IMG/VR virus record: IMGVR_UViG_3300026521_000088
Span: 1 to 32,550 of that record
Direction: 5' to 3' (one strand)
Length of the DNA stretch: 32,550 nucleotides
DNA from: a virus
Lineage: Duplodnaviria; Heunggongvirae; Uroviricota; Caudoviricetes
How positions within the stretch are numbered: position 1 is the first letter of the stretch; the number at the start of each line of letters is the position of its first letter. A model generated the notes under the pieces. The model made no database searches, was not told where the DNA came from, and saw only the letters and a program-made list of their open reading frames with translations. Below, in pieces: positions 1,276 to 18,100 of the stretch. The position numbers and the translations under genes are program-made.

Positions 1276-4200
1276 TTACTTACTCAATTGCTCTATATTA
1301 TGAAATAATGCTGGATTTACAATAGTGTCTAGTGTCATTCCAAGTAAATCTGCAGGTGTGTGTATTGAAGATGTTAAATCTCTAGTGAGTAAACTATCTC
1401 CTAGTGGACTATCTTCATATAATGTACCACCTGTTATTACTGCTAATCCTACATTTAAAGGGTTCTTTAAAGTAACCCTACTTAATACTTTTTGTATTCT
1501 AAGTAAGAACTTCGTAAACATCATAAATCCTCTATCTTCTAACCATTGCATACCTTTACCTTGCTTAACATTATAGTTAATTTGATTATCTAATATTTGT
1601 TTTACAGCAACTTTATGTGGTACTCCTTTATGTTTTAAATTATAATATGTTGAGTATCTAGCTCCAAAGTCACTGTATTGCATAGTTTTTAATAAACCTT
1701 TATACATATCAGTATTTTTAGATATATAAAGATACCCTAATACTTTCTTTACTTTATCTGGTACTTTAGTAGTTAATTTCTCAATTCTACTATCTATATA
1801 AGTTTCTCTATGTAAATCAGCATTAGCTATATCTTCTGTAGTAGATGTATACATACCTGCTTCTATTAATGGTTTTACTGGATTTTTCTGTAAATCATTT
1901 ATTAATTCTTTTTTTCTATTTAACTCTTTACTTGTAACTACCCCTGCTTTTTCTTTAACCTTTATCTTCTTTATCTCTTCTTCAGTTTTTAAATAACTAT
2001 CTAAGTATCTCATACCTTTTATTTGTTCTTTAATCTCATCAATAGGGCTTCTTCCTTGTAATACAGCTAATAACATATTTGATAATATATTAAAGTATAG
2101 TACATGAAGAGATCTAACAACAAGTATAGGTTTTAATGTCTTTATCATATGTTTCCATAACATATCAAGTAATCTAATTACTTGTGCTGCTTTAGGGTAT
2201 TTAGCTGCTAACTTATTTTGAGTATCTCTACCAAATAATATAGCTTCTCTGTTCCCAAATACATGATATACTTGGTTTTCTCTTATAGGTATAGATGGAT
2301 GTCTTTTATATAACTCTTTTACTTGTTCTTTAATATCCTCAGATAAGTCTTTACTCTTTCTATATTCTTCAATATATTCTTTATTTAATTTAGATGTAAT
2401 TTCTAGTAATTTAGATACATCTGGATCTAATTCATTGTATCCTTTTTTTAACTCTATCTCTAAATCTACTATTTTATCAGTTTTTACTACTTTATCTTTT
2501 ACTAATACAGCTATTTCTTTTTGTATTCTATTATAGTGTCTTCTTATAATGTCTATTTTAAAATACCTAGGCATAGGATTCCATACTTCTATAGATTTAT
2601 CATTCTGTTCATAAGGTCCTATAAGTACATATTCCATTCTATCATATTTACCTACTCTTTTACCATACTGATAGTTTCTCTCTGCATTTAATTCTACTTC
2701 ATCTAATACTTGTAGATTTACCTTTTTTGATAATCTAATGTCTGCAGCTCTAGCATAGGATTTAGCATATACTGTTTCTACTTTATTTTTAGTTCTAAGT
2801 ACATTTTCTAACTCATTCTTACTTACTGTTATATTCATATCAGATACATATAGTGTGCCTTTATGGTCTATTGACCATATAGGCATCATTCCTGTATTTT
2901 CTGGTATATAGTATTCATTTCTCATTTTAAGCATTTCAGCTTTAACTTCTTGCTCTTTAAGAGACATTATAAGGTTAGTTTCTTTTCTTACAGCATCATG
3001 TTTCTTTTTATCAAATAAATCCTTATCTTCTAACATCTCACTTTTTAGTATATTTGTATATGAATTTATAGCTACAGTATCGTTAGTAGTTTTTACTGCT
3101 CCTGATTTCCAACCAGGTTCAGCATAAGAATCATTAACATATACTGTAAAATTATTATCATGTGTTAATGTATTATATGTATTATCTGATATTTTTATTT
3201 TTTTATAACCACTAAGTAGCATTTTCTTAGCAGTTTCTTCATCATCTCTACCTACCCTATATGTTATATATGCAGCATTAATTTTTTGATGATGTCCTTT
3301 CACTTTATTAATATCATATTGTCCTTCAAATTCTTCAATATGTCTATATTCAGCATCTATCATTTTACTATATCTACTTAGTAGATATATCTCTTTTTCT
3401 TTATCTTTTATAATTTTAGATACTCTAGTATTTAATACATTATCATTTTCTTTAATAGCGTATAGAGTAGCTAATTTATCAATTAAAGCTTTATTATATT
3501 TAGCTATAGGTAAATTATTAGCCATTTTAATATTATCAAATTTATCAGAAAAATAAGTACCGTATATCATATATGAGTTAGGTAATTGCCCTATACTTGC
3601 TTCACCAGTTACCATATACTTACCTAAACCTTTAGCTTGGTTGATAATAACTTGTACTTTATTACCTTTACCTATACTATCTTCTAATTGACTTTGTGTT
3701 AAATATATCTGTGTTTCTAGATAATCTGGATCTTCTAATATTTTTACTAAAGTTTCAAAATTAGATTCTTTAATTTTTGGTAAGTTATCATTTAATATAC
3801 TTTCAAATTCTATATCAACTAAACCTTTAGTAATATCTGTACTTTCACTATCCGTTAATGGTAATATCTCCTTAATAGTATCTGACATAACCATAGTAGC
3901 TGTATCAATAGCATGGTCTATTTTATTAGTTACTACTCCTAGTTTTTCAATATTATATTCATGGTTATCACTTTGTCTAAATCCTCTAATAATCTGTTGT
4001 ATATCACCAGAACCTTTTAAACCTTCAATACCAAAACCTTTAAGTAATTTACCAGGTATTTCTCTCATAAATGTTTCAAAATCACCTACTGTACCCTCAT
4101 CATCTGATACTAACCACTTAGCAAATATTTTAGTGTATATCTTAGTTTTCTCATATTTACTTAAATTTTCATCATCTAATCTATTTAAATCTTCTCGATA

Positions 4201-5289
4201 TTTTTTATTAGCTTCAGTACCTATATTAGCTTTAATCTTATCTACTTGTTTTTGTATTTTAACTGATAAATATTCATTAGCTTGTTCTAACTTATTTGAA
4301 GCATACTTTGATATACCTGTTTTAAATTCTAAATCTTTATATGCTATATTATTTATTTTAGTAATTTCTTGTAAGTATCTAGCCATAGCTTCAGCACCAG
4401 TTTCTTCTTTTCTATTACCTCTAATTTTTTCTCTAGTAACTTCATATAAATTTTTAATTAGTGCTATTAGCTTAGTGTATAATGTATTACCAGTATATTT
4501 TTCCCTTTTAATTTTAACTCTGTTTTCTAAGATATTTTTCACTCTTATATCTGTCTCTGCTCTAGCCATAAATTCATTAATACCTACTCTAGGATTTTTT
4601 AAGTATTCTACTAAATCCTTAGCTATTTTTTGTTCTGTAACTAAGTTTATACTAGTCTCAGGCATAAAATCTGTATACTTTACTTCTTTTAAAAATGCTT
4701 CATATATTTCTTGAATATCTATTATAGATTCTCTTACTTTATCAGGTGCATTTGTTATAGCAAATTCTCTAGCAGCATGTCCTAATTCATGTACATACAT
4801 TTCTGCTGCTGACATTGTATTTCCAGCTATTAATGCACCATTTGATACATCTACATAAATACCTTTCTTTTTGGTATCTGTATCTTCCATAACCATACTA
4901 CCAAAATTTTTATCTGCTTTACTAATTACTTGTACCATATCTGGTATATTTTTATTTAATTCATTAGTTAAATTTTTCATAGTGCTTCTTAATAAATCTT
5001 CATGCTCTTTACTTATTTTAACACTATCTAACTCTAATAATTTATTAAATATTTCATTATGTTTTTGTGGATTATTTATCATATCAGCAGATACCTCTAT
5101 TAAGGTACTACTATTAGTATTTGATGTATCATTTGTAGCATTATATGTAGTTACATCATATACTTCTTCTACTATCTTATTAGCTAATTCTCTAGCTTTC
5201 TTATATTTCATATTAGGAGCTTGTTTTACTAACTCTCCTAATATATCTTCAAATATCTCATTCTTTACTTTTATACTACAATTACTCAT
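1276..5289 (-). CDS. Virion ejection protein resembling the C-terminal part of N4 vRNAP (HExxH metallopeptidase-like domain plus C-terminal domain)
   Basis: AEMYVHELGHAA (HExxH at 4777-4791). The C-terminal MQYSDFGARY...INYN...G.QWLEDRGFMMFTKFLLRIQKV resembles, from memory, the conserved C-terminus of N4-type vRNAP polyproteins. Its only Cys is residue 4. Confidence 0.7.
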   Translation of the reverse strand: MSNCSIKVKNEIFEDILGELVKQAPNMKYKKARELANKIVEEVYDVTTYNATNDTSNTNSSTLIEVSADMINNPQKHNEIFNKLLELDSVKISKEHEDLLRSTMKNLTNELNKNIPDMVQVISKADKNFGSMVMEDTDTKKKGIYVDVSNGALIAGNTMSAAEMYVHELGHAAREFAITNAPDKVRESIIDIQEIYEAFLKEVKYTDFMPETSINLVTEQKIAKDLVEYLKNPRVGINEFMARAETDIRVKNILENRVKIKREKYTGNTLYTKLIALIKNLYEVTREKIRGNRKEETGAEAMARYLQEITKINNIAYKDLEFKTGISKYASNKLEQANEYLSVKIQKQVDKIKANIGTEANKKYREDLNRLDDENLSKYEKTKIYTKIFAKWLVSDDEGTVGDFETFMREIPGKLLKGFGIEGLKGSGDIQQIIRGFRQSDNHEYNIEKLGVVTNKIDHAIDTATMVMSDTIKEILPLTDSESTDITKGLVDIEFESILNDNLPKIKESNFETLVKILEDPDYLETQIYLTQSQLEDSIGKGNKVQVIINQAKGLGKYMVTGEASIGQLPNSYMIYGTYFSDKFDNIKMANNLPIAKYNKALIDKLATLYAIKENDNVLNTRVSKIIKDKEKEIYLLSRYSKMIDAEYRHIEEFEGQYDINKVKGHHQKINAAYITYRVGRDDEETAKKMLLSGYKKIKISDNTYNTLTHDNNFTVYVNDSYAEPGWKSGAVKTTNDTVAINSYTNILKSEMLEDKDLFDKKKHDAVRKETNLIMSLKEQEVKAEMLKMRNEYYIPENTGMMPIWSIDHKGTLYVSDMNITVSKNELENVLRTKNKVETVYAKSYARAADIRLSKKVNLQVLDEVELNAERNYQYGKRVGKYDRMEYVLIGPYEQNDKSIEVWNPMPRYFKIDIIRRHYNRIQKEIAVLVKDKVVKTDKIVDLEIELKKGYNELDPDVSKLLEITSKLNKEYIEEYRKSKDLSEDIKEQVKELYKRHPSIPIRENQVYHVFGNREAILFGRDTQNKLAAKYPKAAQVIRLLDMLWKHMIKTLKPILVVRSLHVLYFNILSNMLLAVLQGRSPIDEIKEQIKGMRYLDSYLKTEEEIKKIKVKEKAGVVTSKELNRKKELINDLQKNPVKPLIEAGMYTSTTEDIANADLHRETYIDSRIEKLTTKVPDKVKKVLGYLYISKNTDMYKGLLKTMQYSDFGARYSTYYNLKHKGVPHKVAVKQILDNQINYNVKQGKGMQWLEDRGFMMFTKFLLRIQKVLSRVTLKNPLNVGLAVITGGTLYEDSPLGDSLLTRDLTSSIHTPADLLGMTLDTIVNPALFHNIEQLSK

Positions 5290-5292
5290 ATA

Positions 5293-8256
5293 TTACTCAC
5301 ATTCTTTAATTTTAGATTTGTATTTATTATACATTTTTTTAGTTAGTTTGTTCTTAATAATATCTCCTTTATTATATGTTAATTCATCTGATAAAAATTC
5401 AGATGGTAATAGTTCAATAATTTTTATATTATTATCACTATTTCTTATATTAGTCTTAAAGAAGTCTATACTATTTTTAGCTTGTTGTAAAGATCTATTT
5501 ATAGTATTTGTTCTAGTACTGTTACTAGTTCTTTTTTGTATTGTATACTTATCATTTTGTAACACAGCTATATCAGATACTTTTAGTATATGTTTATTTG
5601 TACTTGGTGTTAATATTGTATAACCTTTATCTCGTAATATTACTAGTTCATCTGCAAGTTTTTTGTATATTTTATCTTTATTTTTAATTTTTTTAAATGC
5701 TTTAACTATATAATCTGTACTATCAATACCTAGTAAATTTACTAGTACATCATCACTATCTATAATTTTATCATAATTACTAGCTAGAAATGTTTTACCT
5801 GAACCTGAATTAGCTACAATAATCTTATTTTCGTATTCTGGTTTTAGTACACCTATACCTTCTTTAGAGTCTTTATAAAACGAGTTAAAATCCCTTACAT
5901 CTTTTGTCCTTGGTATAAATGGTGCCAGTAAATTCTTAGCATCAAATATAGTAGCTGCTTTAGCAACTGTTACTGTACTACCATTAGGTGCTACCCAATT
6001 AAATGTATCTTCTAATGTTTTCTTTTTATCTTCACTTAAGTCAACCCAAATAGCTTGTATACCTGTTGTTCTTTCAGCAACAATAGTTGTAGTGAACCCT
6101 GACGGATTTCTCTCAATATCAGCTTCGTATGTACCTACAACTTTATTATTTGTATCTACTATATCGTATGCTACAATTCTACTAGATGTACTATGTTCAT
6201 TAAATCTTTTTATATTAGCTAATTTAGTACCTTTTGGTGTAACTGCTAATGTAAGTACACTACTTGATTTTAAAAAATTTTTTGCAGCATACTTCCCTAA
6301 AGGTTCCAATATGTCTATTTTAGCTAAATTACCAATTTTACCTAGTGCATTCATAATAGCTTCATTATCTGGTATTGAGAAATCAAATAATACAGTTATT
6401 TCAGAATTTTGTTGCAATTTATAAATAATTTTACTTATTGTTTCAGGTGTTGAGTCTAATAATGCAAAATCTAAATCATGTAAGTCAGTACCATTTTTAC
6501 CTTGTTTTCTATATATTGTTCCTTGCATAGCTAATGCTTCAGAACCAGTAAACACTGCTGTATTATTAGATGCTTCCATAACATCATATATAATACTAGC
6601 AGCTTTTGGTTGTTGTTTAAAATCATTTGTTGGATTAACTTTTTTAGTACCTTTTTTAGGTTTAAATGATATAGCTTCTGCATTTTCTCCATTATAAATA
6701 TTCAAAGCTAATTGTTTTATATTGAAATCTATTTTATATTGTTCAAATTGTTTTTTATTAAATATTTTAGCAAATGTATATTTTATAAATTTAAGTATTT
6801 TACCTAATATACTATTATCAAAACTTTTACCTAAACCAATGTCTAACAGATCATCTTTAATACCTTCAGATATTTTATGCTTAGCTTCTTCTCTTGTTAT
6901 TGTACAGTCTTTACTTACTTTAGTTATTAAATTATTTACAAATGTTGATTTTTCTAACATATTAACATATATATCAGCATACTTTTTTATACTTATATCT
7001 GCATTATTTACATAACTATCTACAGCTAATACTAGTTCTTTTTTAGTATACTTATCAACACTATCTTTGACATCTGGATACATAGTTTCTAATTTATTTA
7101 AAATTTTATTATATATATAAGTATCCATATCATCATAGGTTTTTAAGTCTTTAGCTTCTAAAAAGTTATTTGTTAAAATATTTCTTAACTCTTCTTTAGA
7201 TTTATTATCTAATTTTTTAAATAACCCTTTAACCCAAGTACTAAACTTTTTCCACCAATTATAAGCTAAACCTTTTTGTACTACTACTTGTTCTCCAATA
7301 GCTTGTACTAAAGCTTCCTCAGTACCATATTTTTTAATACCAGTTTGTACTATAGGTGACTCTTTAAACATTGCTATATAATGATGAGCATATTCATGTG
7401 GTAATGTATCTTGTGTTTGTAGCTCAGGATTTATAAGTACAGATAGAGCTTTTATATCTGCTTTACCTCTAATATTTTTACCTAAGTCTTTATAATCTAG
7501 TTTAATATTAGGGTATAATTTTTTTAATAATTCTTGTAACCTTTTATTTAATTTCTCATCAAATTTACCTGTATTAGGTGTATTTGTTTTTTGAAATTCA
7601 GGTATATCTTTATCTGTATTTACATCTTCAGCATTATCAATATCTGCTAAGTCCAATAAATCTTTATAAGCTTCATTATAAGTTTTATATACACCTATTT
7701 GTAATCTAAGTGCAAATTCATTACTTATATTAACATCTGTTGTAGCTAGTATAGTTTGGAATTTTTCAGGTAAATCTGTTATACTAGTATCAGTAATCTT
7801 TGTATCAGTGTTTGATGTAGTTGGAGTATTAAACCAATCATCTGTATTAGTAGCTCTTTTTTTAGATTTTTTTAATTTTTTTATATTCTTTATTATAGTA
7901 TACCCTTTATCAATATAAAAATTAAAATCATCTATATCATCAAATACACTATGTATATATACTACAGCTGGTTCACCATCCATAGTTAGTATAGGATGTT
8001 CCATCTCAAATGAGAAATAATCATAATTGTATCCTTGTTCTGCTATAACATCTTTTAAACTATTATATTTACTAGTATTAGATTGTTTTTCTTTATTACC
8101 TTTTAAATCGCTACTAATAGTATTTTCTGTATTGTTATTATTTACTAATATTTCTAGTTTATCAACTAAAGGCTGTATAGCCTCTTGTTGTTTTATATTA
8201 TAGTTTAGTGATAGTTCAGCTAACTTATTTAGTAAGTCTAATGCTCCACATTCCAT
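5293..8256 (-). CDS. Polyvalent protein: HExxH metallopeptidase-like, Pol-beta-superfamily nucleotidyltransferase and P-loop kinase-like domains
   Basis: LPHEYAHHY (~7384-7398). FTGSEALAMQGTIYR...LHDLDF...IFDAK...RTKDVRDF (~5890-6555). IIVANSGSGKTFLA...IIDSDD (~5760-5825). Cys only at 3, 451 and 986. Confidence 0.75.
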   Translation of the reverse strand: MECGALDLLNKLAELSLNYNIKQQEAIQPLVDKLEILVNNNNTENTISSDLKGNKEKQSNTSKYNSLKDVIAEQGYNYDYFSFEMEHPILTMDGEPAVVYIHSVFDDIDDFNFYIDKGYTIIKNIKKLKKSKKRATNTDDWFNTPTTSNTDTKITDTSITDLPEKFQTILATTDVNISNEFALRLQIGVYKTYNEAYKDLLDLADIDNAEDVNTDKDIPEFQKTNTPNTGKFDEKLNKRLQELLKKLYPNIKLDYKDLGKNIRGKADIKALSVLINPELQTQDTLPHEYAHHYIAMFKESPIVQTGIKKYGTEEALVQAIGEQVVVQKGLAYNWWKKFSTWVKGLFKKLDNKSKEELRNILTNNFLEAKDLKTYDDMDTYIYNKILNKLETMYPDVKDSVDKYTKKELVLAVDSYVNNADISIKKYADIYVNMLEKSTFVNNLITKVSKDCTITREEAKHKISEGIKDDLLDIGLGKSFDNSILGKILKFIKYTFAKIFNKKQFEQYKIDFNIKQLALNIYNGENAEAISFKPKKGTKKVNPTNDFKQQPKAASIIYDVMEASNNTAVFTGSEALAMQGTIYRKQGKNGTDLHDLDFALLDSTPETISKIIYKLQQNSEITVLFDFSIPDNEAIMNALGKIGNLAKIDILEPLGKYAAKNFLKSSSVLTLAVTPKGTKLANIKRFNEHSTSSRIVAYDIVDTNNKVVGTYEADIERNPSGFTTTIVAERTTGIQAIWVDLSEDKKKTLEDTFNWVAPNGSTVTVAKAATIFDAKNLLAPFIPRTKDVRDFNSFYKDSKEGIGVLKPEYENKIIVANSGSGKTFLASNYDKIIDSDDVLVNLLGIDSTDYIVKAFKKIKNKDKIYKKLADELVILRDKGYTILTPSTNKHILKVSDIAVLQNDKYTIQKRTSNSTRTNTINRSLQQAKNSIDFFKTNIRNSDNNIKIIELLPSEFLSDELTYNKGDIIKNKLTKKMYNKYKSKIKECE

Positions 8257-8265
8257 ATATATCCT

Positions 8266-11200
8266 TTAACAGTTTTCTAATAATGTTTGTAATAAATCAT
8301 TATTTTTTATTTTATTAGTACCAACTAAATCTTTTAGTATATCTTGTATAGCTTTTTTAGGAGCTGGTTGTAACTTATTATAAGTATCTATTATACTATC
8401 TAAATCTTTATTTTTACTAGATTTTATGTTTTTATTTTTTTGTATAAACTCAACCATTTCCTTAATTCTCTTAGAAACACTCCTACCACTAGTAAGTAAT
8501 GCTATATACTCTTTAGCTTTTTTCTTATTTATATTATCAGTAGCTTCTATACTTTTCATAGCATCTAACATACTATTTTTTGGTATTTGTCTAAATGTTA
8601 TACTGTATCTATAATTATTTTTTGCTTTACCAACAGTATGGTATAGTAATCCTGTATTCATTTCAACCAATGAGCCATTAGGGACTGTAATTGTATTACC
8701 ACCTATTTTATGGTCAGTAATAGTATCGCCTATACTTACAATAGCTACAGGACCAACATTACCATTAACATCTAAATAAATACCTTCTGCATCTTGATGA
8801 TTTCCTATACCTACACCTTTACCAAATCTATTAAATAGTACATGATTGTATTTACCAGTTTCAACACCTAATTTACTTTCTACTTTTCTAGCTAATTCAG
8901 ATAACCATTTTGGCATTGGTTTTGGTTTATGTATTAAAGTACTTTTACCCCCATTATACCTATACTCTATAGGACCAAACACTTGTGCTACTTGAGTTTG
9001 TACATTATGTGTATTTGATTTATTATTAGCAGTACTAGTTTTTATTAAATTTTCCATATTATTTATTAATGTTGTACTATATGTATCATTTATAAAATTT
9101 TCATGTATTACTACATCTTTAGGTTTAGATTTAGTCTTAGGTATTTCAATTGTAATAATATTTTCAGATTTTATAGTACTTTCATCAGTACTTTTTAAAT
9201 AATTCTCTACATCTTTGTATGTAGTAAATTCTTTATTTTTAATAATACTAGGTACTAGTAATGCTATAGCTACAGGTAGTTCATCTACTGTATCTTTAAG
9301 TGATTTTGGAAAATCTTCAAATTCAGTACTTAAGTATACATTCTTTTCACCAACTTCTTTACCATTAATCTTAGTAGGTATATTTATATTATATTTAGAA
9401 AATATGTTTAATAACTTAACTTCTAAATTTTCTGATAATTTTTTACCAGACTCTAATACTAAAGATATTGTATTAAATGCAGTTTTATCAGCTCTACTTA
9501 TATCATTAGGTACTAATTTAACTAGTTTAAGTAATGTATTATTATCTTTACTAAATTCTATATCTGTTTTAGCTAACCTTTCTCTGATATTTGTAAGTAT
9601 TTCTGGAAACTTTTTTGACCAATACTCTGGTATCTTATCTCCACTATGTGTCAATACTTTATTACCAGTACTTAATAATAAAGCTTTTGCAGAATTGTTA
9701 TCAGTATAGTACTTTAACATAATCTTTTTTAGTATAGCTTCTGTTTGTTCTTCCCAAGCTTTTTTAAGATTTTTATCTTTACTCTTAATATTTGAACCTA
9801 GAATTTTTGCAGCAAACCCTGATGTATAATTACGCTTAAGTCCAGTATCTTTTGGTTTATTCCATTTAGCACCTTCTTTATTAAGATTAAGTATCTTTTC
9901 TGCTATCTTATGTTCACCAAAGAATTTAGCTTTAATATACTGATATGCTCCTTCTACAGTAGCAAATTCAGTATGTCCTGTAATAAACTCTGTATCTGTA
10001 TTATTTACTGGTATTGTATTAGAATCTAATATAACTGTACCAGTATTAAAGTTTGATAAGCTATCATAACCATTAGCTTCAGTAGAGTGTATATTTATAA
10101 CTTTATTAGTTTTTACTTTATTTATATAGTCCTTAATCTCTTTTAATTTATCTTTACTAGGATTTTCTAATAAATCATTAGTATATTCTAATAATTTACT
10201 CTGTAACCCAATATCCTGTGTATTTGCAAATATCTCATTAAGCACAAGTTGTAGGTTAGCTATTTTATTATTATTATCATAAGGTAGTATTTTCATATAT
10301 GTTAAATTACCAGTTAATAAGTTTAATCTATTAGCTAGATAATTATATAGCTTAGGGGCTTTAGTTTTTAAATTAGATACACCTGTACCTATACCGTTAG
10401 ATGGTAATACTATTGTTTTACCTTCTTTAAGATAATTCTCTACTACAGCTAAATCTGTATCTACTTGTTTTTTAAATTTATCAAAATCTTTAGTTTCATA
10501 AAATCTAGTAGAATCTTTAGTATTAGCATTTTTAACAGTAACTATACCTATAGTATTAGGTAATCCTCTAATTACTGCTTGTGTAATATTTGGGTACCTT
10601 CCTTTAGTTTCATCTTTAATATCTATTAAATTTTGACCAGAAGTTCTTTCTTCATTATCACCAAATAAGTAAATCTTATCCATATCTTTCTCTACATTAG
10701 ATCTATATAATTTTTTTATTAGTTCTACTTTATTATTATACGGTACAAACTTAGAGTTAGATACAGGTTTTTTTGAACTATTTACTTGAGTATTATTTTT
10801 AGTAGTTCTTTCATTGTTATTAACTACACCTTTATTTAGTAATTCTTTATGATTTATGAGATTTCTCAATACTTTAGCGTGAGTTAAATCACTAGTTTTT
10901 TTATAATAAATTATTTGTTTAGGTACAGTATTATTACCTATTACTTTTATATCTAATTTACCATCTAGTATTTGGGAAATTATCCAATCTCTTCTATTAG
11001 GTTGTACATCTAAATCAGATTTTTTAAGTAACCAGTTAGCAAATCTTTTACTCACTTCTTCTTCATTACCTGCTTTAATAATATAACCAGCTTTTGTATA
11101 CTGCTTATCTTTACCTTTTTCATACCCTGTAACTAAGAAAGGATTACCATAATGATGTTGTGCATCTAAACCTTTTACATAATCAGATTTAAATACTCTC

Positions 11201-12147
11201 TTGGAGTATATACCTAAATTACTATTATGTGCTGTAACTGCACCTTTTTCTGTGTTAGTTATAAGAATGCCATTATTACTAATATCAGATAATACATTTT
11301 CAGGAAGTTTATTAGATTCTAATTTATCTCTTACAGGTTTATCTTTATCTTTCTTAAGTACAGCATCTAATTGTTCTTGCCATTTAGGATCAGCCATATT
11401 AATTACTGGTCTACCTTTTTTGCTAGCTAGTATAATAGCTTGTCCAGTACCTCCAGTATTATGTTCATTATTAGTACCACCATAATATACTTGACTATAA
11501 TTAGTTACTGCTTCACCTTTATTATTTAATGGTGTCCAAGCTAGTACAAAATCTACTGGGTTATCTAAGTCTTTACCAAATACTTGGTTAGTATTTCTAG
11601 CCATTAACTTAGCTGGACCATCACCATTTTTAATTAAAGCTTCAAAATTACCGTGAGTTTCTTTAGCTACATTCCATTCAATACTATCTTTTTTAATATC
11701 TTCAGGTCTATATAATTCTCTAGTGCTTCCATCTTCTTTAGTACCATCAATAAATGCTCCATCAGCACCTTCTTTTTTATTTTTAAATGTCAATCCAGTT
11801 CTAAGTGTATATCCTTTAGATTCTAAATATTTAGCAACTTCTGTCATAGTTTCATAAATAGGTTTACCATTACTATCTACAGCTTTAGTACCTCTTCTAC
11901 TTCCAATACCAGCATAAGTCATAGACTTAGAATCTTCTGTATATTCTGGTAATGAATCTAATATAGGTGTAAGTTTTTTATCTACTATTGTATTTTCAAT
12001 TATTCTAATCTCTACTTCAGAACTATAAACTCTACCTAAAGTTATTAAATTATGTATAGGTATAGAGAACTTATTAGAGTTCTTTACACCATATTTATTT
12101 TGTAATTTCTTAATCTCTGATTCTATCTTTTTTGCATCACAATTCAT
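8266..12147 (-). CDS. Polyvalent protein: SLOG (DprA/YspA-like), DUF4326-like, macrodomain-like, NADAR (YbiA) and AlkB-type 2OG-Fe(II) dioxygenase domains
   Basis: SLOG: YAGIGSR...LRTG...GADGAF...ARN..QVFG.DL..PVDFVLAWT...GGTGQAI. DUF4326-like: YGNPF...RRDWI...HAKVL. Macro-like: YLFGDN...QAVIRG.PN.IGI.T...LPSNGIGTG...APKLYNYL. NADAR: LSNF...FATVEGAYQYIK...LLLSTGNKVL. AlkB: EYRYNG...NHVLFNRF...GIGNHQDAE...VSIG...YHTV...RYSITFR. Cys only at 3 and 1293. Confidence 0.85.
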   Translation of the reverse strand: MNCDAKKIESEIKKLQNKYGVKNSNKFSIPIHNLITLGRVYSSEVEIRIIENTIVDKKLTPILDSLPEYTEDSKSMTYAGIGSRRGTKAVDSNGKPIYETMTEVAKYLESKGYTLRTGLTFKNKKEGADGAFIDGTKEDGSTRELYRPEDIKKDSIEWNVAKETHGNFEALIKNGDGPAKLMARNTNQVFGKDLDNPVDFVLAWTPLNNKGEAVTNYSQVYYGGTNNEHNTGGTGQAIILASKKGRPVINMADPKWQEQLDAVLKKDKDKPVRDKLESNKLPENVLSDISNNGILITNTEKGAVTAHNSNLGIYSKRVFKSDYVKGLDAQHHYGNPFLVTGYEKGKDKQYTKAGYIIKAGNEEEVSKRFANWLLKKSDLDVQPNRRDWIISQILDGKLDIKVIGNNTVPKQIIYYKKTSDLTHAKVLRNLINHKELLNKGVVNNNERTTKNNTQVNSSKKPVSNSKFVPYNNKVELIKKLYRSNVEKDMDKIYLFGDNEERTSGQNLIDIKDETKGRYPNITQAVIRGLPNTIGIVTVKNANTKDSTRFYETKDFDKFKKQVDTDLAVVENYLKEGKTIVLPSNGIGTGVSNLKTKAPKLYNYLANRLNLLTGNLTYMKILPYDNNNKIANLQLVLNEIFANTQDIGLQSKLLEYTNDLLENPSKDKLKEIKDYINKVKTNKVINIHSTEANGYDSLSNFNTGTVILDSNTIPVNNTDTEFITGHTEFATVEGAYQYIKAKFFGEHKIAEKILNLNKEGAKWNKPKDTGLKRNYTSGFAAKILGSNIKSKDKNLKKAWEEQTEAILKKIMLKYYTDNNSAKALLLSTGNKVLTHSGDKIPEYWSKKFPEILTNIRERLAKTDIEFSKDNNTLLKLVKLVPNDISRADKTAFNTISLVLESGKKLSENLEVKLLNIFSKYNINIPTKINGKEVGEKNVYLSTEFEDFPKSLKDTVDELPVAIALLVPSIIKNKEFTTYKDVENYLKSTDESTIKSENIITIEIPKTKSKPKDVVIHENFINDTYSTTLINNMENLIKTSTANNKSNTHNVQTQVAQVFGPIEYRYNGGKSTLIHKPKPMPKWLSELARKVESKLGVETGKYNHVLFNRFGKGVGIGNHQDAEGIYLDVNGNVGPVAIVSIGDTITDHKIGGNTITVPNGSLVEMNTGLLYHTVGKAKNNYRYSITFRQIPKNSMLDAMKSIEATDNINKKKAKEYIALLTSGRSVSKRIKEMVEFIQKNKNIKSSKNKDLDSIIDTYNKLQPAPKKAIQDILKDLVGTNKIKNNDLLQTLLENC

Positions 12148-15100
12148 TAACAGTTACCATCCAGTACTTTAGTAAGTATTTTTATTATTTCTATATTATA
12201 CTCTATTTTTTGTTTAGTATCTTTAATACCATTAGTAGATAAGATACTTTTTAAATAGTTTTGTCTTGCTTTCTTAGTTTTTAATGCTTGAAGTTCAGGT
12301 ATATTATTAATACTACTTAATCTACGTTTTATTCGTAATTCACCTTCTTCTATAAATTTATCTATATTATATGTAGCTTTAGACTCTATAGCACTATTCA
12401 TTGCTGGGAATTGGTCAACAACTACATCATGTGAAAACATCTCTTGTCTTTTTATCCATACATCCTCTGCTAGTTGTTCTAACTCTACTACTTGGTCTAA
12501 AAATGGTTTAGTGACATACTCTTCATCACCATTTTCATTAGTTTTTTTAGATTGCTTTTTCTCACTTTCTGTACGCATATCATCTAAGTTAATATAATCT
12601 AAATTCTTAGCTTCTTCATATACAGCTCTAGCACCTTTAGCCATACTATTAATGTTATCGTATGCTTTACTTGTTTCTATAAAATTGGTGTTCATACTTT
12701 TTACAGTATCTAATTGTCCACTAGCTCCTAAAACTAAAGCATCATGTACTGGTATAATACCAGTTTTATCTATATTATCATTAATAGTTTTAGCCATAGT
12801 TACAGCATCTTCTGTATGTGTAGGTATAACACCTGCTGCTGAGTAAGCTTCTGTTATTTTCTTAATAAATATTTTAGTAGATATTGTTCTACTTTCCCCA
12901 CTACTAGTAGTATATCTTAATGCTGGTTTATTATCAGAATATGGTATGTCATCATCTTTAGCTAAACCACTATCAAAAATAAAGATACCATCTTTTAGTC
13001 TATCACTAGAAGCTGGTCCATCAAATATAGGTAAAAATTTAGCTAATTCTTTAGTTAATTCAAGTGTTTCATCTTGAGATAATGTAAGAATTTTTCTTTT
13101 ACCAGTATTATTTTTATTTAATTCTTCTAACTTTTCCTCTACTTTTTTAGTCATAGCTTGTTCAAATATTCTCATCATATATCTTGATGTAACATTTACT
13201 GCATCAGTAACTTTAATCATCTCACCAAATGTAGACTCTACAGCCTTTGATACAGCTTTACCTAATGAGTTTTGAAACATAGTAGTTAATACTGTATCTA
13301 AGTTATTCTTTTTAGTACCTAACATATGCAGTGGTGTATTACCTAAAGCTAATACTAAATCATCAATAGTGTCTATATTTAATGTTTCATTGAGTTGAGC
13401 AACAGGTAATAAATGAGATAATGTTAATGCTGCATTATTTTGTAAATCAATATCTTCAGTATTATGGTAATCTTTTAGTAATTTACTAATAGCTTTATTA
13501 GCAGTTGCTTTACCAATATTCTTAATTACAGTCTTTAATGAACTACCATACTGTGTAGTCATAGTAGGGTTTTTAAGTAAGTCTCTTAGAGCTTTAGTTA
13601 ACCCTTCATCAATATCTGGTAAGAATTGCATAAATAAATCATCTTCTAATACATTACCATCACTATCAAATAGTAAACCTAAAGGATCAATAGAACTTAT
13701 ATCATCATCAGGTGCTTTATTTTCTAATAAAGCATTAACTAGGTCTTCTTTTGAAATTTCAGCAATAATACCTTGTGAGAAGTAAATATCTAGCACTTTA
13801 CCTTCTTCTCCATTTTTTCTAGATTTATTACTCTCACCTAATTGTGTTAACATACCATCTTTAAGCATATCATCATAACTTACACCAGTTTGATATAAGC
13901 CAGAGTTATCAGTATCTTTAAATACAAACCCACCTTTAACTAGTAATTCATAAATATTTTTACTTAGTGGTATTTGTAAAGATTTAATCATAACACCATT
14001 TGTAACACCATCAAATTCAGCAGAAATATGAGCTTCAAAATTATCATTTGGACCAGCATTCTTATAAGCTTCAATAGCTGCTAAAGCTTGCATTGCATGA
14101 CCAAAGTGATCTATATTTTTCTTACCATCTTCACTAATTTCAGTAGCTAGTTTAAATAACTCATCCATATCTTTTGTTAATAAATCTGTTGCAAAATCTA
14201 TAGTATCTTGAGGTATTTCTTTATCAATGTCTAAACCAAAAGCTTGAGCAATACCAAATTTAAAACCTATAGTATCTAAAACATCTTTATCTATAGCTGC
14301 TTTATTTAGTACACTTCTAGATTTAACTGGTACTGTGAGCCATCTATGAGCTTCTTTCTCATTCTGTTGGTCAATAAGTACTGATTTACCATTAAGTCTG
14401 TTATTCTTAGGAGTGAACCATGTAAAATAAAAAGAATTATTTCTAACACCACTAGTTATTTTAGTATCTAGCTTTAGTAATTCATCATAAGCTCTAGTAA
14501 TACCAAGATTTTGTGCTTTAGCTACTGATTTATCATATTCAGATAATGTAACATCATTATCAATATCAACATCATCTCTCCAACCCATAAGTTTTAAAGC
14601 TTGTTCTTTTGGTACTTTTTTTACCCAATCCATAGCTTCTGGTATAAGATAATTCTCTTGTTGATTTAAGTTATTAATAGCATCTGCTACAGTTTGTGTA
14701 GGTATAGTAACACTATTATCTTTAATACCTATTTCTTCTGGTGTCATAGTTCTAGGTTTTTCAAATTGAATACTATGACTATCTTGAGGAATAATTGTAT
14801 CTTCTTCTAATTCATCAATAATATCTATAGTTTCTTTTAATATATCTTTATCTGTATCTTTTTTAAATTTTAAAAAGTTAACTGAAGAATCTTTATTTTT
14901 ATCTGTTATTTCAATATCTAAGTCAGCTTTCTCAGCATACTCTTCCAGAGACATAGCTACATTATCCATATAACGCTCTTCTAACATTGCTACACCTAAT
15001 AGTCCTAATCCAGATTTAAAACGGTTATATGCTGCTATATCACCATCTTTTGGTTTAGCTTGTAGATCTAGTAAATCCATAATTGATGTACCAATATCAT

Positions 15101-18100
15101 TAGCTAAACTAGCTCTAGTTGTTAGGTTCTTAAATGTATTTCTCATCTCATCAGTAATTTCATACTCATTTTTACCTAACATAGAAGCTATCTGCTCATC
15201 TTCTTTATAACTTAATTTACTTAATTGATTTCTTAAAGTAGTGTATGTAGCTACAAATACAGCAGTAGCAACATTCTTATCTATATTACCCTTATCATCA
15301 AGTATAAATGCAGTACCAGGTTGTCTAAAGTCAATATAATTTTTAAGTTTTTTACCATTAACATCAAGCTCAATATCTTTAAAAAATTTAACAGCTTCAT
15401 TTGTTATTTTAGTTAATGTTTTACTTTCTATCATATTAACAGGTACCATACCTAATAATGATGTACCTTTCTTCTTAGTTTGTGCAAAGTCTTCAAATTT
15501 TAAAGGTATACCAGATTCTAATCTAGCTTCTTGTGCTTTTGTATCTATTTTACCACCAGACATAGGTGTATTACCAGCTCTATATTTTTGTCTAAGTAAT
15601 AAATTCTTAGTGTAATTAGGTGTAGATGTTTCAGTTTTAAGTCTTTTAAGTCTTTTAGTCAATACTGCTAATGTTCTTTTATTTCTACTTTGTTTCTTTA
15701 AAGCTTTCTTTCTGCTATCATTAAAATTTTGTAATTCATCATATTGTACTTCAGTATCTTTATTAAATAATTTAATTATTTTTTTAGTAGTTTTAGAGTA
15801 TTCTTTTTCAAAGTTTTCTATATTTTTAGTAGAATTATCTAATTCTTTTTTCTTAGTTTCTAGCAATTTCTCTTTTTCTTTAATTTGTTTATTTAATGTT
15901 ACCATATCTTTAAGAATTTTACCACTACCATTAACTAATTTACCTAGGTAATTCCATAGATTTTTATATACAGTTCTTAATTTTTGTATAGTAGTTTCTC
16001 TAATCTTTAGATTCTTACTATGGTTATTTGTTAATTTATGTACTTCTTTATTAAGATTAAATAACTTATCTTGTAATTGTATACTTTTACCTTCTAAAGT
16101 TTTTAACTCTCTTTCTAATTTAGCTACTTCTTTTTTATCTACTCTTTCCTTAGCTTTAAGCTCTTTAAGTTTATTGTTTAATAATGTTAAATACTCTAAA
16201 TGCTGTTTAGTACTTTCAGTCATAGTTTCTGAAGAATCTAAGATTGTTTTTTCAATAGCTGAAATTTTAGCTTCAGTAACTTTACCATCTACTGTAATAG
16301 TTTTTATAAATTTTTTATTATTAGCTTCAATTTCTTGTTTAAGTTGGTATATTTTGTCTTCTAACTCTTCTACTTCTAGTCTTTTAGTTACTACTTCAAT
16401 ATCACTCTGTGTATTTTCTTCTTTATTACTATTATGTTTTTTATCATATTTTTCTTTCTCTCTATTAATCTCATGAGGTACTGTAACTTCATTATCAATA
16501 TTTAATAAACTATTATACAAATCCAATTCAGTTTTAATAGATTTTGCTAATGCAAATATATCTGTAGTTTTATCCGTACTACCATCAATATTTCTAGGTG
16601 TATTGAATTTTTGATCAACAATAGAATTATAGCTAATAGTTATTTTCTTATTGCCATTACCAGTACCTACTTCTTTGGACTCTAATTTATATATAGAATG
16701 TAGTGCATCTATAAGTTTAGTAGGGTCATTTCTTAGCTCTTCTGCTGTATAGACTACTTCATCTTTACTATCAGATAACATATCTTTTACATCAATACTA
16801 GGTACTGTATAACCATTAGCATATAAATCTTTAATAGTAGCATTTATATCTGAAGACATATTTTTAATAGCTTTAGCAATAGCTACTAATTTAGCTTTTT
16901 TAGTACTTTGTTTAGTTTTAATCTTTTTAACTACTTGTTCTTTAGTTTTAGCTAAAGACTCTATTTTTCTATCAATATCATAAATAGATATTAATTTTTT
17001 AGCTTTTAATCTACTATAATAATTAGCTCTATTAGAACCTGTAAAACCTTTAGATAAGAATGTTTTAATATCAGGTGGTGTAGTTCCATCAGGTATATGT
17101 TGTTTTATATAATTTTCAGTAAATTCTATAGTTTTTTGTTTAAGTTTTTCATAATGTTTTATTGCTAATTCATTATGTTTTATTTTCTTAATTCTTTCAA
17201 CAATACCATCTTTACCATATATATCTTCAGCAATAATTCCTTCTGCTGTAAGTTTAACTTTAGGTTTTTTAGTTTGTTTTTTTGATTTAGTTTTAGTACT
17301 TTTTTTACTATTCCTGTTATCTGTTTTTTGACTAGTATTGCTAGAAGTTTCAGTATTAGGATTTTCAACATAATCATCTACAGTACTATCTATTGTGCTA
17401 TCATAATTCTCAATAGCATTTATATAGGTTTTTATATTATCTAAATCTTGTTTCTCTTCATTAGGTAAACTATCATAATAAGGGACCATATTATCTAATA
17501 AAGCTTTTAACTTTGGTATAGGTAAATTATTTACATGCTCTGGTAATTTATCATGAAGTTCTTGTATTACAGAAGAGTCTGGAGTAGCTCCAAATACTTG
17601 TATTTTCTCAGAATACGTCATATTATTTAATCTATCTAAATCTACATCTGACAATACTTTAGTACTTACATCATTAATTTTAGCTTCAAAATTATTAATA
17701 GCTTGTTCATAATTTTTTACTTTAGCTTTCTCTTCAGTTGTTAGAGTATTATAATCTAGTTTATCTAAAGCTTTTTGTAACCTATCAAGTACAATTTTAC
17801 TAGAACCTAATTTAGTATTTTGCAAAGCTTCTTGTGATACTATGGCATCATCTAAAATACCAATATGTTTATCTAACTGAGAGACTTTACCATCTTTACT
17901 AAGTAATAATGTATCTAATTCATTTAATACTTCTTTATTATCATATTTACCATTACTCATTTTAGCAGATGGTACTTCATTCTCTAGTTCATTATATAAT
18001 GTACTTACTACATCTTCATGGTATTTACCATCTAGTGTATTTTTAATAGTCCTTACTTTAGCACCTTGATTTTGTACTAGTTCTAATAATTCTTCTGATG

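What the first reader, a model, noticed from the sequence alone, without database searches (positions are those of the whole stretch)
8266..12147. Five-enzyme NAD/ADP-ribose/alkylation repair polyprotein probably co-injected with the genome
Seen (approximate spans): SLOG 11390-11920, DUF4326-like 10850-11210, macro-like 10320-10700, NADAR 9570-10100, and AlkB 8590-9110 with intact HxD...H...R (HQD, YHTV, RYSITFR). Established: NADAR enzymes reverse guanine ADP-ribosylation by DarT1; macrodomains (DarG) reverse thymidine ADP-ribosylation by DarT2; AlkB oxidatively removes base alkylation; SLOG domains bind nucleotides and occur in NAD-linked defence systems such as Thoeris ThsA. Inference: this is a pre-made anti-defence kit acting before early transcription. 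All five domains in one virion-block protein is an unusual architecture.
Basis: partly seen in the sequence, partly recalled or inferred. Interest (0 to 1): 0.85.

Follow-up and report, generated by a model that had tools for sequence, protein, structure and literature searches.

The report
Injected multi-enzyme DNA-mark eraser protein
A marine N4-related phage encodes, between the pieces of its split virion RNA polymerase, a 1293-residue protein that joins an ADP-ribose-removing enzyme, an alkylation-repair enzyme and three nucleotide-handling domains; it is probably shot into the cell with the DNA, which makes it a new variant of the known "polyvalent protein" strategy.

Summary
The ORF (window 8266-12147, minus strand, 1293 aa) is real. 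Four of the five domain calls hold:
- DUF4326-superfamily domain.
- Phage gp30.3/AdfN-type NADAR, with Glu732, Lys739 and His834.
- AlkB with an intact HxD...H and RxxxTFR site.

The phage is N4-related, 104 kb. Its virion RNA polymerase (vRNAP) is split into an RNAP-core ORF (2713 aa) and an MPTase/C-terminal ORF (1337 aa). This protein and a 987-aa ORF lie between them.

No proteomics was possible, but three lines of evidence support packaging and ejection:
- Two distant syntenic loci have the same layout.
- Each of the five modules occurs elsewhere in one chain with vRNAP parts.
- The four chains are almost Cys-free except at the facing termini (here Cys3 and Cys1293). Among 125 homologous large proteins, 51% and 57% show such terminal Cys, against about 0.5% expected.

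Injected polyvalent proteins and SLOG/Macro/NADAR/DUF4326 fusions are already published (Aravind lab). The new points are the ADPr/alkyl-eraser content on an N4-type chain, the five-module set (a singleton), and the terminal-Cys links. Enzyme activities and targets remain inference. The scan has separate notes on this same stretch.

The parts
8266..12147 (-). ORF1293 (P0001), the polyvalent cargo protein. It is the middle link of the split vRNAP chain and has only two Cys, at residues 3 and 1293.
11968..12147 (-). N-terminal leader, residues 1-60, starting M-N-C. The start codon overlaps the stop of the upstream ORF (TAATG).
11338..11967 (-). SLOG (DprA/LOG/ThsA-like Rossmannoid) domain, residues 61-270. 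Motifs: GIGSR 80-84, GADGAF 127-132, MARNTNQ 182-188, GGTGQA 232-237.
10843..11235 (-). DUF4326-superfamily domain, Cys-less version, residues 305-435. It has H-Y-G-N-P-F at 332-337 and His423.
10303..10728 (-). DUF7831 domain, residues 474-615. Motifs: FGDN 495-498, TQAVIRG 522-528, GIGTG 585-589. It is an alpha/beta fold of unknown activity.
9568..10098 (-). NADAR domain of the phage gp30.3/AdfN type, residues 684-860, with Glu732, Lys739 and His834.
9058..9567 (-). Unassigned region of about 170 residues between NADAR and AlkB (residues 861-1030).
8578..9057 (-). AlkB-type Fe(II)/2OG dioxygenase, residues 1031-1190, with Asn1106, His1117, Asp1119, His1170, Arg1180 and Arg1186.
8269..8577 (-). 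C-terminal tail, residues 1191-1293, with no family match. It ends ...LLENC.
12147..20288 (-). Context: ORF2713, the first link. It holds the N4-type vRNAP core (phrog_2206 profile positions 777-1997). Its only Cys is the last residue.
5293..8256 (-). Context: ORF987, the second cargo link. It has an HEYAH motif at residue 287 and Cys at 3, 451 and 986.
1276..5289 (-). Context: ORF1337, the last link. It holds HELGH (MPTase-like) at residue 167 plus the N4 gp50 C-terminal (encapsidation) region. Its only Cys is residue 4.

Best explanation
ORF1293 is a polyvalent cargo (ejection) protein of an N4-related phage. It is the middle link of a virion RNA polymerase chain that has been split into four genes.

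Proposed course of events:
1. It is made late and packaged in the capsid with the vRNAP core (ORF2713) and the MPTase/C-terminal piece (ORF1337). It is probably tethered head-to-tail through its terminal cysteines.
2. It is extruded into the cell with, or just ahead of, the DNA.
3. It is released there, by reduction of the tether and/or by the neighbouring HExxH peptidases.

Proposed activities in the cytoplasm, before any phage gene is expressed:
- The gp30.3/AdfN-type NADAR domain removes ADP-ribose from bases of the incoming (single-stranded) DNA.
- The AlkB domain oxidatively removes alkyl lesions from ssDNA or RNA.
- The SLOG, Cys-less DUF4326 and DUF7831 domains bind or process ADP-ribose-derived nucleotides.

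Shown: domain identities, catalytic residues, gene context, fused forms in relatives, and the Cys pattern. Inferred: packaging, tethering, release, and every substrate.
For: Domain identities:
-.
- The NADAR clade aligns to T4 AdfN. Glu732 matches E36, Lys739 matches K43, and the phage-type His is kept. PMC11825919 shows that T4 AdfN de-ADP-ribosylates DNA and counters DarTG1.
- AlkB keeps N...HxD...H...RxxxTFR.

The carrier is N4-type:
- ORF2713 matches Schitoviridae vRNAPs.
- ORF1337 matches the gp50 C-terminal region, which is required for encapsidation in N4 (cited in PMC5512222).

Synteny:
- L003 reads: RNAP ORF '...GEC*' | P0002 'MSC...KEC*' (SLOG-AlkB) | 'MSKC...' CTD ORF.
- L016 reads: '...GEC*' | P0060 'MSC...LQC*' (SLOG-NADAR-DUF7831-AlkB) | 'MPIC...' CTD ORF.

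The same modules occur in one chain with vRNAP parts:
- P0109, 3725 aa: DUF4326L + NADAR + DUF7831 + N4 RNAP + CTD.
- L009: AlkB + CTD.
- P0041, P0007, P0016 and others: SLOG + CTD.
- P0057 and P0133: DUF7831 + CTD.

Cysteine signature:
- ORF1293 has Cys only at residues 3 and 1293, while the rest of the proteome has 1.05% Cys.
- Of 125 large homologues, 51% have Cys in residues 2-6 and 57% in the last 6, against about 0.5% expected.
- All 11 split proteins that end in the CTD have only an N-terminal Cys. Single-chain vRNAPs have none.
- The canonical DUF4326 Cys triad is replaced in this protein.

The phage also carries Nampt for NAD+ salvage.
Against: - There is no virion proteomics, no expression data and no biochemistry.
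- ORF1293 has no recognisable packaging or ejection signal of its own.
- The complex prediction of its N-terminus with the ORF2713 C-terminus gave no verdict.
- NADAR specificity in vivo is narrow and context-dependent (PMC11125620), so DarT1 reversal is not assured.
- SLOG lacks the LOG PGGxGTxxE motif.
- The DUF4326 version has lost three family-conserved Cys and might be non-catalytic.
- DUF7831 has no known activity.
- The host and its defence systems are unknown.
- Capsid assembly happens in a reducing cytoplasm, so a disulfide tether could form only after release. The Cys may serve another purpose.
Confidence: 0.6

Rival explanations
1. The same protein is packaged, but its main targets are soluble NAD+/ADP-ribose-derived molecules rather than modified DNA. 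These would include Thoeris-type cADPR isomers, His-ADPR and ADPr-1''-phosphate. In this reading NADAR, DUF7831, DUF4326 and SLOG form a degradation pipeline for immune signals or toxins, and AlkB is an unrelated add-on.
For: - Aravind and co-workers predict this for viral SLOG/Macro/NADAR/DUF4326 fusions (PMC9503650, read; PMC7824862).
- DUF7831 recurs fused with DUF4326 and with YAcAr-type SLOG in mostly viral clusters.
- The phage has NAD+ salvage genes.
- N4-like phages are targeted by Thoeris (bioRxiv 10.64898/2026.06.04.730250).
- A DprA-like SLOG phage protein is reported as an anti-Avs factor predicted to bind AMP (bioRxiv 10.1101/2025.06.06.658234).
Against: - The only experimentally characterised activity of the gp30.3-type NADAR clade is removal of ADP-ribose from guanine in DNA (PMC11825919, PMC11125620).
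- AlkB, a nucleic-acid repair enzyme, co-occurs with these modules repeatedly (P0012, P0020, P0037, P0060, L009). This points to nucleic acid as a shared substrate.
- Immune signals are made after sensing, when early phage genes could already act.
Confidence: 0.25
2. The protein is not packaged. It is a late-expressed cytoplasmic repair/anti-defence enzyme that cleans replicating or progeny DNA/RNA, and it merely sits in the late operon.
For: - No direct evidence of virion association exists.
- ORF1293 lacks vRNAP N- or C-terminal regions.
- Most viral NADAR, Macro and SLOG proteins are stand-alone and often early (PMC9503650).
Against: - It is translationally coupled inside the vRNAP chain.
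- The position between RNAP core and CTD is conserved in three divergent phages.
- The same modules are covalently part of single-chain vRNAPs.
- It shares the extreme Cys depletion and terminal-Cys rule of the chain.
Confidence: 0.1
3. It is an RNA-repair kit. AlkB demethylates tRNA/mRNA, while NADAR, DUF4326 and DUF7831 process ADP-ribose phosphate by-products of NAD-dependent RNA repair. This would counter host tRNA- or mRNA-damaging defences.
For: - AlkB homologues of RNA viruses repair RNA (own knowledge).
- Iyer et al. link NADAR and Macro to NAD+-dependent RNA repair.
Against: - No RNA ligase, kinase/phosphatase (Pnkp) or Tpt1/KptA partner lies in the chain.
- The carrier is a DNA-dependent RNAP that acts on incoming DNA.
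Confidence: 0.04
4. Artefact: the four ORFs are one vRNAP gene broken by assembly errors or joined by programmed frameshifting.
For: The Alteromonas phage AD45-P1 record annotates its gp50-like region as a 'potential frameshift'.
Against: - The break points, each with stop, new ATG and flanking Cys, are conserved at the protein level in L003 and L016 at 21-41% identity, and in dozens of metagenomic proteins.
- There is no slippery heptamer at the TAATG junction.
Confidence: 0.01

Closest known systems
Polyvalent proteins of phages and conjugative elements, including N4 vRNAP-type ones (Iyer, Burroughs, Anand, de Souza, Aravind 2017, PMC5512222)
   Same: - Many unrelated enzymatic domains in one large polypeptide.
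- Encoded with late/virion genes and linked to an N4-type vRNAP and HExxH MPTase.
- Proposed to enter the cell with the DNA and act at the earliest stage of infection.
   Different: - The 2017 survey lists ART, lysozyme and PBECR RNase as partners of N4-type RNAP. Its text has no mention of NADAR, AlkB, SLOG or DUF4326.
- Here the chain is split into four genes whose ends carry cysteines, and the cargo consists of erasers rather than modifiers.
SLOG / Macro / NADAR / DUF4326 fusions of DNA viruses (Iyer et al. 2021 PMC7824862; 2022 PMC9503650)
   Same: The same guild of NAD+/ADPr-related domains fused in shuffled orders, with a predicted counter-defence role.
   Different: - Those are described mostly as stand-alone or small fusions in jumbo phages and NCLDVs, with a true Macro domain. 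Here the third module is DUF7831, and macro identity is unproven.
- AlkB is added.
- The DUF4326 lacks its Cys triad.
- The whole set rides on an ejected vRNAP chain.
T4 gp30.3 = AdfN, the anti-DarT factor NADAR (PMC11825919; PMC11125620)
   Same: - NADAR fold.
- Conserved Glu and Lys, shown to matter in AdfN.
- The phage-type His in the last strand (hhalign probability 91%, E 1.1e-6).
   Different: - AdfN is a 152-aa stand-alone early protein.
- Alignment identity is only 26%.
- The activity of this domain is untested.
T4 Alt, T4 IPI* and P1 DarA/DarB: pre-packaged, injected host-modifying or anti-restriction proteins
   Same: Strategy: a ready-made protein delivered from the capsid so that it acts before transcription.
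   Different: - Unrelated folds and targets.
- They act as single activities, not as five modules on an RNAP chain.
E. coli AlkB / human ALKBH2
   Same: 2OG-Fe(II) dioxygenase core with HxD...H, Asn and RxxxTFR.
   Different: - Very divergent: NCBIfam AlkB equivalog scores 12.9 bits against a cutoff of 267.
- The Tyr of the NRY motif is Phe here.
- It is embedded in a phage cargo protein.

Membership tests
Polyvalent proteins (Iyer et al. 2017) | Two or more domains of disparate biochemical activity in one polypeptide | tested here: met
   SLOG, DUF4326-like, DUF7831, NADAR and AlkB all lie in one 1293-aa chain.
Polyvalent proteins (Iyer et al. 2017) | Encoded among late/virion genes and linked to a module known to be delivered with DNA (here N4-type vRNAP) | tested here: met
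   The ORF lies between the vRNAP core ORF and the CTD ORF, downstream of portal and major capsid protein genes. The same modules are fused to vRNAP in P0109 and L009.
Polyvalent proteins (Iyer et al. 2017) | Associated zincin-like MPTase | tested here: inconclusive
   HExxH motifs occur in ORF987 (HEYAH 287) and ORF1337 (HELGH 167), and are conserved in L003. There is no profile-level match except a weak Peptidase_M4 hit in P0109. ORF1293 itself has none.
Polyvalent proteins (Iyer et al. 2017) | Physical transfer into the host with the DNA | not testable with these tools
   Needs virion proteomics or injection assays.
NADAR superfamily, phage gp30.3/AdfN type | Match to the NADAR family model above its curated threshold | tested here: met
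   Pfam PF08719 scores 38.9 bits against 35.1. The clade profile matches YbiA 2b3w at 2.2e-18 and NADAR 8bau at 2.1e-13.
NADAR superfamily, phage gp30.3/AdfN type | Catalytic Glu and Lys (E36/K43 of T4 AdfN; E88/K95 of E. coli C7 NADAR) | tested here: met
   Glu732 and Lys739 are invariant in the clade and align to T4 E36/K43.
NADAR superfamily, phage gp30.3/AdfN type | His in the last strand in place of the YbiA Glu or the DarG1 Asp (PMC11543638, PMC11125620) | tested here: met
   LTH834 aligns with T4 LKH.
NADAR superfamily, phage gp30.3/AdfN type | Guanine-ADP-ribose glycohydrolase activity / DarT1 rescue | not testable with these tools
   A biochemical or phage assay is needed.
AlkB family (2OG-Fe(II) dioxygenase) | Family model above threshold | tested here: met
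   PF13532 scores 37.8 bits against 31.2. The profile matches ALKBH2 at 7.6e-6 and E. coli AlkB at 0.043. The NCBIfam equivalog for E. coli AlkB is far below its cutoff, so this is not an orthologue.
AlkB family (2OG-Fe(II) dioxygenase) | Fe(II) triad HxD...H and 2OG ligands N, R...R (RxxxTFR) | tested here: met
   N1106, H1117, D1119, H1170, R1180 and R1186 are invariant in alignment A1.
AlkB family (2OG-Fe(II) dioxygenase) | Nucleotide-recognition lid / substrate preference | not tested
SLOG superfamily (Smf/DprA-LOG) | SLOG Rossmannoid fold | tested here: met
LOG family (cytokinin/AMP phosphoribohydrolases) within SLOG | PGGxGTxxE catalytic motif (own knowledge) | tested here: not met
   The corresponding loop reads GGTGQAIILA, with no Glu. 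No Pfam Lysine_decarbox hit was found.
ThsA-type SLOG (cADPR sensor) | cADPR-contacting residues | not tested
DUF4326 (PF14216) | Homology to the family | tested here: met
   The clade profile A4 finds 36 PF14216-annotated proteins at E from 9e-17 to 2e-6. Ten of 24 clade members hit PF14216 weakly. The shared motifs H-[FY]-GNPF, W, RR.WI and H..VL align. P0001 itself gives no Pfam hit.
DUF4326 (PF14216) | Conserved C-x-C...C-H cluster of canonical members | tested here: not met
   It is replaced by I-Y-Y...T-H in P0001 and other polyvalent-protein copies. This is therefore a Cys-less variant, and its activity may differ.
Macro domain | Sequence match to macro family models | tested here: not met
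   No Pfam Macro hit at E up to 1. The DUF7831 profile finds no PDB chain at E up to 10.
Macro domain | Macro fold | tested here: inconclusive

The most novel reading that the evidence does not exclude
A clade of N4-related phages has cut its giant ejected RNA polymerase into several genes and re-joins the chains head-to-tail through single cysteines at the new termini. The rest of each chain is kept Cys-free, even at the cost of the conserved Cys triad of DUF4326. The virion would then carry a disulfide-stapled 'daisy chain' that the reducing host cytoplasm unclips. This would release free vRNAP together with a swappable cassette of ADP-ribose and alkyl erasers, of which this five-module protein is the richest example. 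It would be a protease-independent, redox-triggered way to deliver and release anti-defence enzymes.
Probability: 0.35. Interest if true: 0.85.

Novelty: new variant of a known kind. Interest (0 to 1): 0.62.

Why it matters
Known counters to DarTG, Thoeris and similar systems are almost all early-expressed proteins. An eraser kit that arrives ready-made with the genome would act before the first transcript. That timing matters most for N4-type phages, whose first step, vRNAP transcription from single-stranded hairpin promoters, exposes exactly the ssDNA that DarT toxins and alkylation damage hit.

The locus offers several things:
- A natural, modular catalogue of candidate anti-defence domains (DUF7831, Cys-less DUF4326, phage SLOG) whose repeated co-occurrence with NADAR and AlkB gives testable substrate hypotheses.
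- A simple sequence signature for finding ejected proteins in metagenomes: Cys-free chains with terminal Cys.
- A possible new mechanism for assembling and releasing multi-chain cargo.

Tried and rejected
- crAss-like phage. This was my first guess from the giant ORFs and low GC. I rejected it because ORF2713 matches N4-type (Schitoviridae, Alteromonas AD45) vRNAPs and PHROG 2206.
- Iterated profile search of the DUF4326-like domain. It drifted into the neighbouring DUF7831. A clean hhalign of the two families shows no relation (probability 0.2%), so I discarded the idea that the two domains are homologous.
- Sequence searches of the PDB. The SLOG, DUF4326-like and DUF7831 profiles found nothing meaningful.
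- Foldseek for the SLOG model. Against PDB and Swiss-Prot it gave only generic Rossmann hits, with DprA/ThsA at high probability but weak E-values. The Foldseek-independent VIA search settled it.
- Joint alignment of SLOG plus DUF4326-like for one fold job. It misplaced the fragment rows and was abandoned, so the DUF4326-like domain, AlkB, the 861-1030 region and the C-terminal tail have no models.
- Searches for closer syntenic loci. A viral-contig scan with ORF1337 alone found nothing. The metagenome-contig scan returned only two short contigs.
- Complex prediction of the ORF2713 C-terminus with the ORF1293 N-terminus. No verdict: score 0.24 against a mark of 0.34. This is neither support nor evidence against.
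- tblastn of the NADAR span against phage genomes. It did not reach T4 gp30.3. The link was made by alignment and hhalign instead.
- PADLOC and NCBIfam gave only sub-threshold NADAR/AlkB hits.
- Programmed frameshift at the junctions. Rejected for lack of a slippery site and because the stop/ATG/Cys pattern is conserved.

Full report
**Observation.** The window has an uninterrupted ORF at 8266-12147 on the minus strand, 1293 codons, kept as P0001. The genome is about 27% GC, so an open frame of this length cannot arise by chance. These coincide with the domains I find.

**Domain by domain.**

(i) Residues 61-270, SLOG.
- PHROG 768 'DprA-like DNA recombination-mediator' scores 2.6e-28. Pfam is silent.
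- An AlphaFold2 model built on 43 homologues has pLDDT 85.
- The fold call is therefore confirmed. The LOG catalytic PGGxGTxxE motif is not present (the loop reads GGTGQAIILA), so a phosphoribohydrolase activity cannot be assumed.

(ii) Residues 305-435, DUF4326-like.
- There is no Pfam hit for this protein, and weak hits only for 10 of 24 clade members.
- A profile of the clade retrieves 91 small proteins, and 36 of them carry a precomputed Pfam DUF4326 annotation, at E from 9e-17 to 2e-6.
- The alignment shows shared H-[FY]-G-N-P-F, W, RR.WI and H..VL motifs.
- Canonical members have C-x-C...C-H. This protein and other polyvalent-protein copies have Y-Y...[ST]-H, so it is a Cys-less variant.

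(iii) Residues 474-615, DUF7831.
- This is Pfam DUF7831 at 2.2e-25. No paper in the library mentions the family.
- The model is good, with pLDDT 86.7, but it has no convincing solved relative.
- Foldseek's best PDB hits are protein tyrosine phosphatases at E about 0.07.
- 'Macro-like' is therefore possible but unproven, and the DarT2 inference has no support.
- Conserved FGDN, TQAvIRG, GIxT and GIGTG motifs sit at strand ends, as in a nucleotide-binding site.
- Atlas clusters show DUF7831 habitually fused with DUF4326 and with YAcAr-type SLOG, mostly in viruses.

(iv) Residues 684-860, NADAR.
- Pfam NADAR is above threshold. The clade profile hits YbiA at 2.2e-18 and a NADAR structure at 2.1e-13.
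- The clade aligns with T4 gp30.3/AdfN: hhalign probability 91%, E 1.1e-6. Glu732 matches E36, Lys739 matches K43, and His834 lies in LTH/LKH.
- The literature defines phage NADARs by exactly this His (PMC11543638, PMC11125620). It also shows that AdfN removes ADP-ribose from DNA and defeats DarTG1 (PMC11825919).

(v) Residues 1031-1190, AlkB.
- Pfam 2OG-FeII_Oxy_2 is above threshold. The profile matches ALKBH2 at 7.6e-6.
- Asn1106, His1117-x-Asp1119, His1170 and Arg1180...Arg1186 (RYSITFR) are invariant among homologues.

Residues 1-60, 861-1030 and 1191-1293 match nothing.

**Context: the surprise.**
- I first took the phage for a crAss-like virus. ORF2713 (12147-20288) in fact matches N4-type virion RNA polymerases, both by PHROG 2206 profile positions 777-1997 and by tblastn to Vibrio schitoviruses and the 104-kb Alteromonas AD45 podoviruses.
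- ORF1337 (1276-5289) matches the end of the same profile and carries HELGH. It therefore corresponds to the MPTase plus C-terminal region, which in N4 gp50 is required for encapsidation (PMC5512222).
- The window is the first 32.5 kb of a single 104,075-bp contig.
- So the vRNAP is split, and ORF1293 and ORF987 lie in the gap.
- The ORFs are tightly coupled. The ORF2713 stop and ORF1293 start overlap as TAATG, and gaps of 9 nt and 3 nt follow.

(a) Synteny.
- L003 (an ENA contig) reads: RNAP ORF | P0002 (SLOG-AlkB plus an ORF987-like part) | CTD ORF.
- The much more distant L016 reads: RNAP ORF | P0060 (SLOG-NADAR-DUF7831-AlkB) | CTD ORF.

(b) Fusion. Each module occurs in one polypeptide with vRNAP parts somewhere:
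- P0109 (3725 aa) carries DUF4326-like + NADAR (1.2e-13) + DUF7831 + N4_RNAP_helical + CTD.
- L009 carries AlkB + CTD.
- Eight proteins carry an N-terminal SLOG plus CTD.
- P0057 and P0133 carry DUF7831 + CTD.

(c) A shared idiosyncrasy.
- ORF2713 has one Cys, its last residue. ORF1293 has two, at residues 3 and 1293. ORF987 has Cys at 3, 451 and 986. ORF1337 has one, at residue 4. The rest of the proteome has 1.05% Cys.
- L003 and L016 show the same '...EC*' / 'M-x-C' junctions.
- Among 125 large homologues gathered through the three N-terminal modules, interior Cys is 0.09%. Yet 51% have Cys in residues 2-6 and 57% in the last six, against about 0.5% expected.
- All 11 split proteins that end in the CTD have only the N-terminal Cys. 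The single-chain vRNAPs in this set have no terminal Cys, and most have no Cys at all.
- The loss of the DUF4326 Cys triad fits the same rule.

ORF1293 thus obeys the constraints of the ejected chain and has ends built to meet its neighbours.

**Mechanism (inference).**
- I propose that ORF1293 travels as a bead in that string, tethered by its terminal Cys. The tether would be a disulfide formed after lysis or, less likely, a metal bridge. The protein would be freed in the reducing cytoplasm and/or by the HExxH domains next door.
- Once inside, NADAR and AlkB would clean the incoming template. DarT toxins act on ssDNA, and AlkB prefers ssDNA (own knowledge). N4-type early transcription uses single-stranded hairpin promoters (own knowledge; N4 template requirements are cited in PMC5512222).
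- For SLOG, DUF4326 and DUF7831, the published prediction is processing or sensing of ADPr-derived nucleotides (PMC9503650).
- The genome also has Nampt, with NAPRTase 7.9e-25 and NAMPT_N 2.9e-12. This agrees with an NAD-centred conflict.

**Uniqueness.**
- P0001 is a singleton at 90% identity among 5.8 billion clusters, and it is the only protein seen here with all five modules.
- Four-module proteins exist in other orders: P0012 is AlkB-SLOG-DUF4326L-NADAR and P0060 is SLOG-NADAR-DUF7831-AlkB. Twelve more proteins have three of the five.
- The guild is therefore recurrent, and the cassette is variable.

**Comparison with the literature.**
- Injected polyvalent proteins, including N4-RNAP-type ones with an MPTase, were defined in 2017. 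Their listed partners are ART, lysozyme and PBECR, and the text mentions none of NADAR, AlkB, SLOG or DUF4326.
- Fusions of SLOG, Macro, NADAR and DUF4326 in DNA viruses were described in 2021-22. Those papers mention AlkB only as a sporadic jumbo-phage enzyme.
- I found no paper on split vRNAP chains with terminal cysteines.

**Verdict.**
It is a new variant of a known kind, not a new category.
- Earlier notes of this scan flagged the split vRNAP and the Cys-ended chains on this same stretch. I re-derived both here and extended the Cys rule to other phages.

Noticed in passing
window 1276-20288 (four ORFs); also L003, L016 and about 125 metagenomic proteins: Terminal-cysteine rule. Giant ejection/polyvalent proteins related to this locus are almost Cys-free (interior 0.09%) but carry a Cys at residues 3-5 and/or within the last 6 residues. 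First links have only a C-terminal Cys, last (CTD) links only an N-terminal Cys, and single-chain vRNAPs have none. This suggests head-to-tail linking of split chains.
   Followed up: partly
window 10843-11235 (P0001 residues 305-435); alignment A11: Canonical DUF4326 proteins have a conserved C-x-C...C-H cluster. The copies inside polyvalent proteins replace the three Cys by Tyr-Tyr and Ser/Thr and keep the other motifs. This is a Cys-purged variant of the family.
   Followed up: partly
window 5293-8256 (ORF987): Second cargo protein with no family hit apart from a weak Methyltransf_32 hit. It has an HEYAH motif at residue 287, which is conserved in P0002. Residues 381-791 recur in P0002 and P0073, so it is another shuffled polyvalent module set.
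   Followed up: partly
window 167-925 (ORF252): A Cys-free 252-aa protein directly downstream of the chain. Its C-terminal half matches endolysin/amidase PHROGs (1e-10). It may be a virion-associated peptidoglycan hydrolase, an activity that the N4 ejection proteins are said to lack.
   Followed up: no
L005-L012 (IMG/VR N4-like contigs): Of these eight loci, seven carry a single-chain vRNAP of 3500-3700 residues (L009 is cut by the contig end at 1939 residues; L011 is split). All but L007 have no cysteine in the chain that carries the C-terminal region. L009 carries an AlkB domain (7e-17) in the same chain as that region.
   Followed up: partly
L004 8001-19178 (P0109, Logan SRR28738744): A 3725-aa single-chain vRNAP with DUF4326-like, NADAR and DUF7831 modules in its N-terminal third. 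A tyrosine-recombinase gene lies immediately downstream on the opposite strand.
   Followed up: no
G000 71146-73789 (outside the window; L013): NAD+ salvage genes: Nampt (NAPRTase 7.9e-25, NAMPT_N 2.9e-12), preceded by a weak cytidylyltransferase-like (NMNAT-type) ORF.
   Followed up: partly
L001 1606-13288 (Alteromonas phage AD45-P1, NC_021532 positions 90623-102305): The N4 gp50-like region of this cultured 104-kb podovirus is annotated only as a 'potential frameshift' over 11.7 kb. It may be another split vRNAP chain, and so a cultivable model for testing packaging.
   Followed up: no
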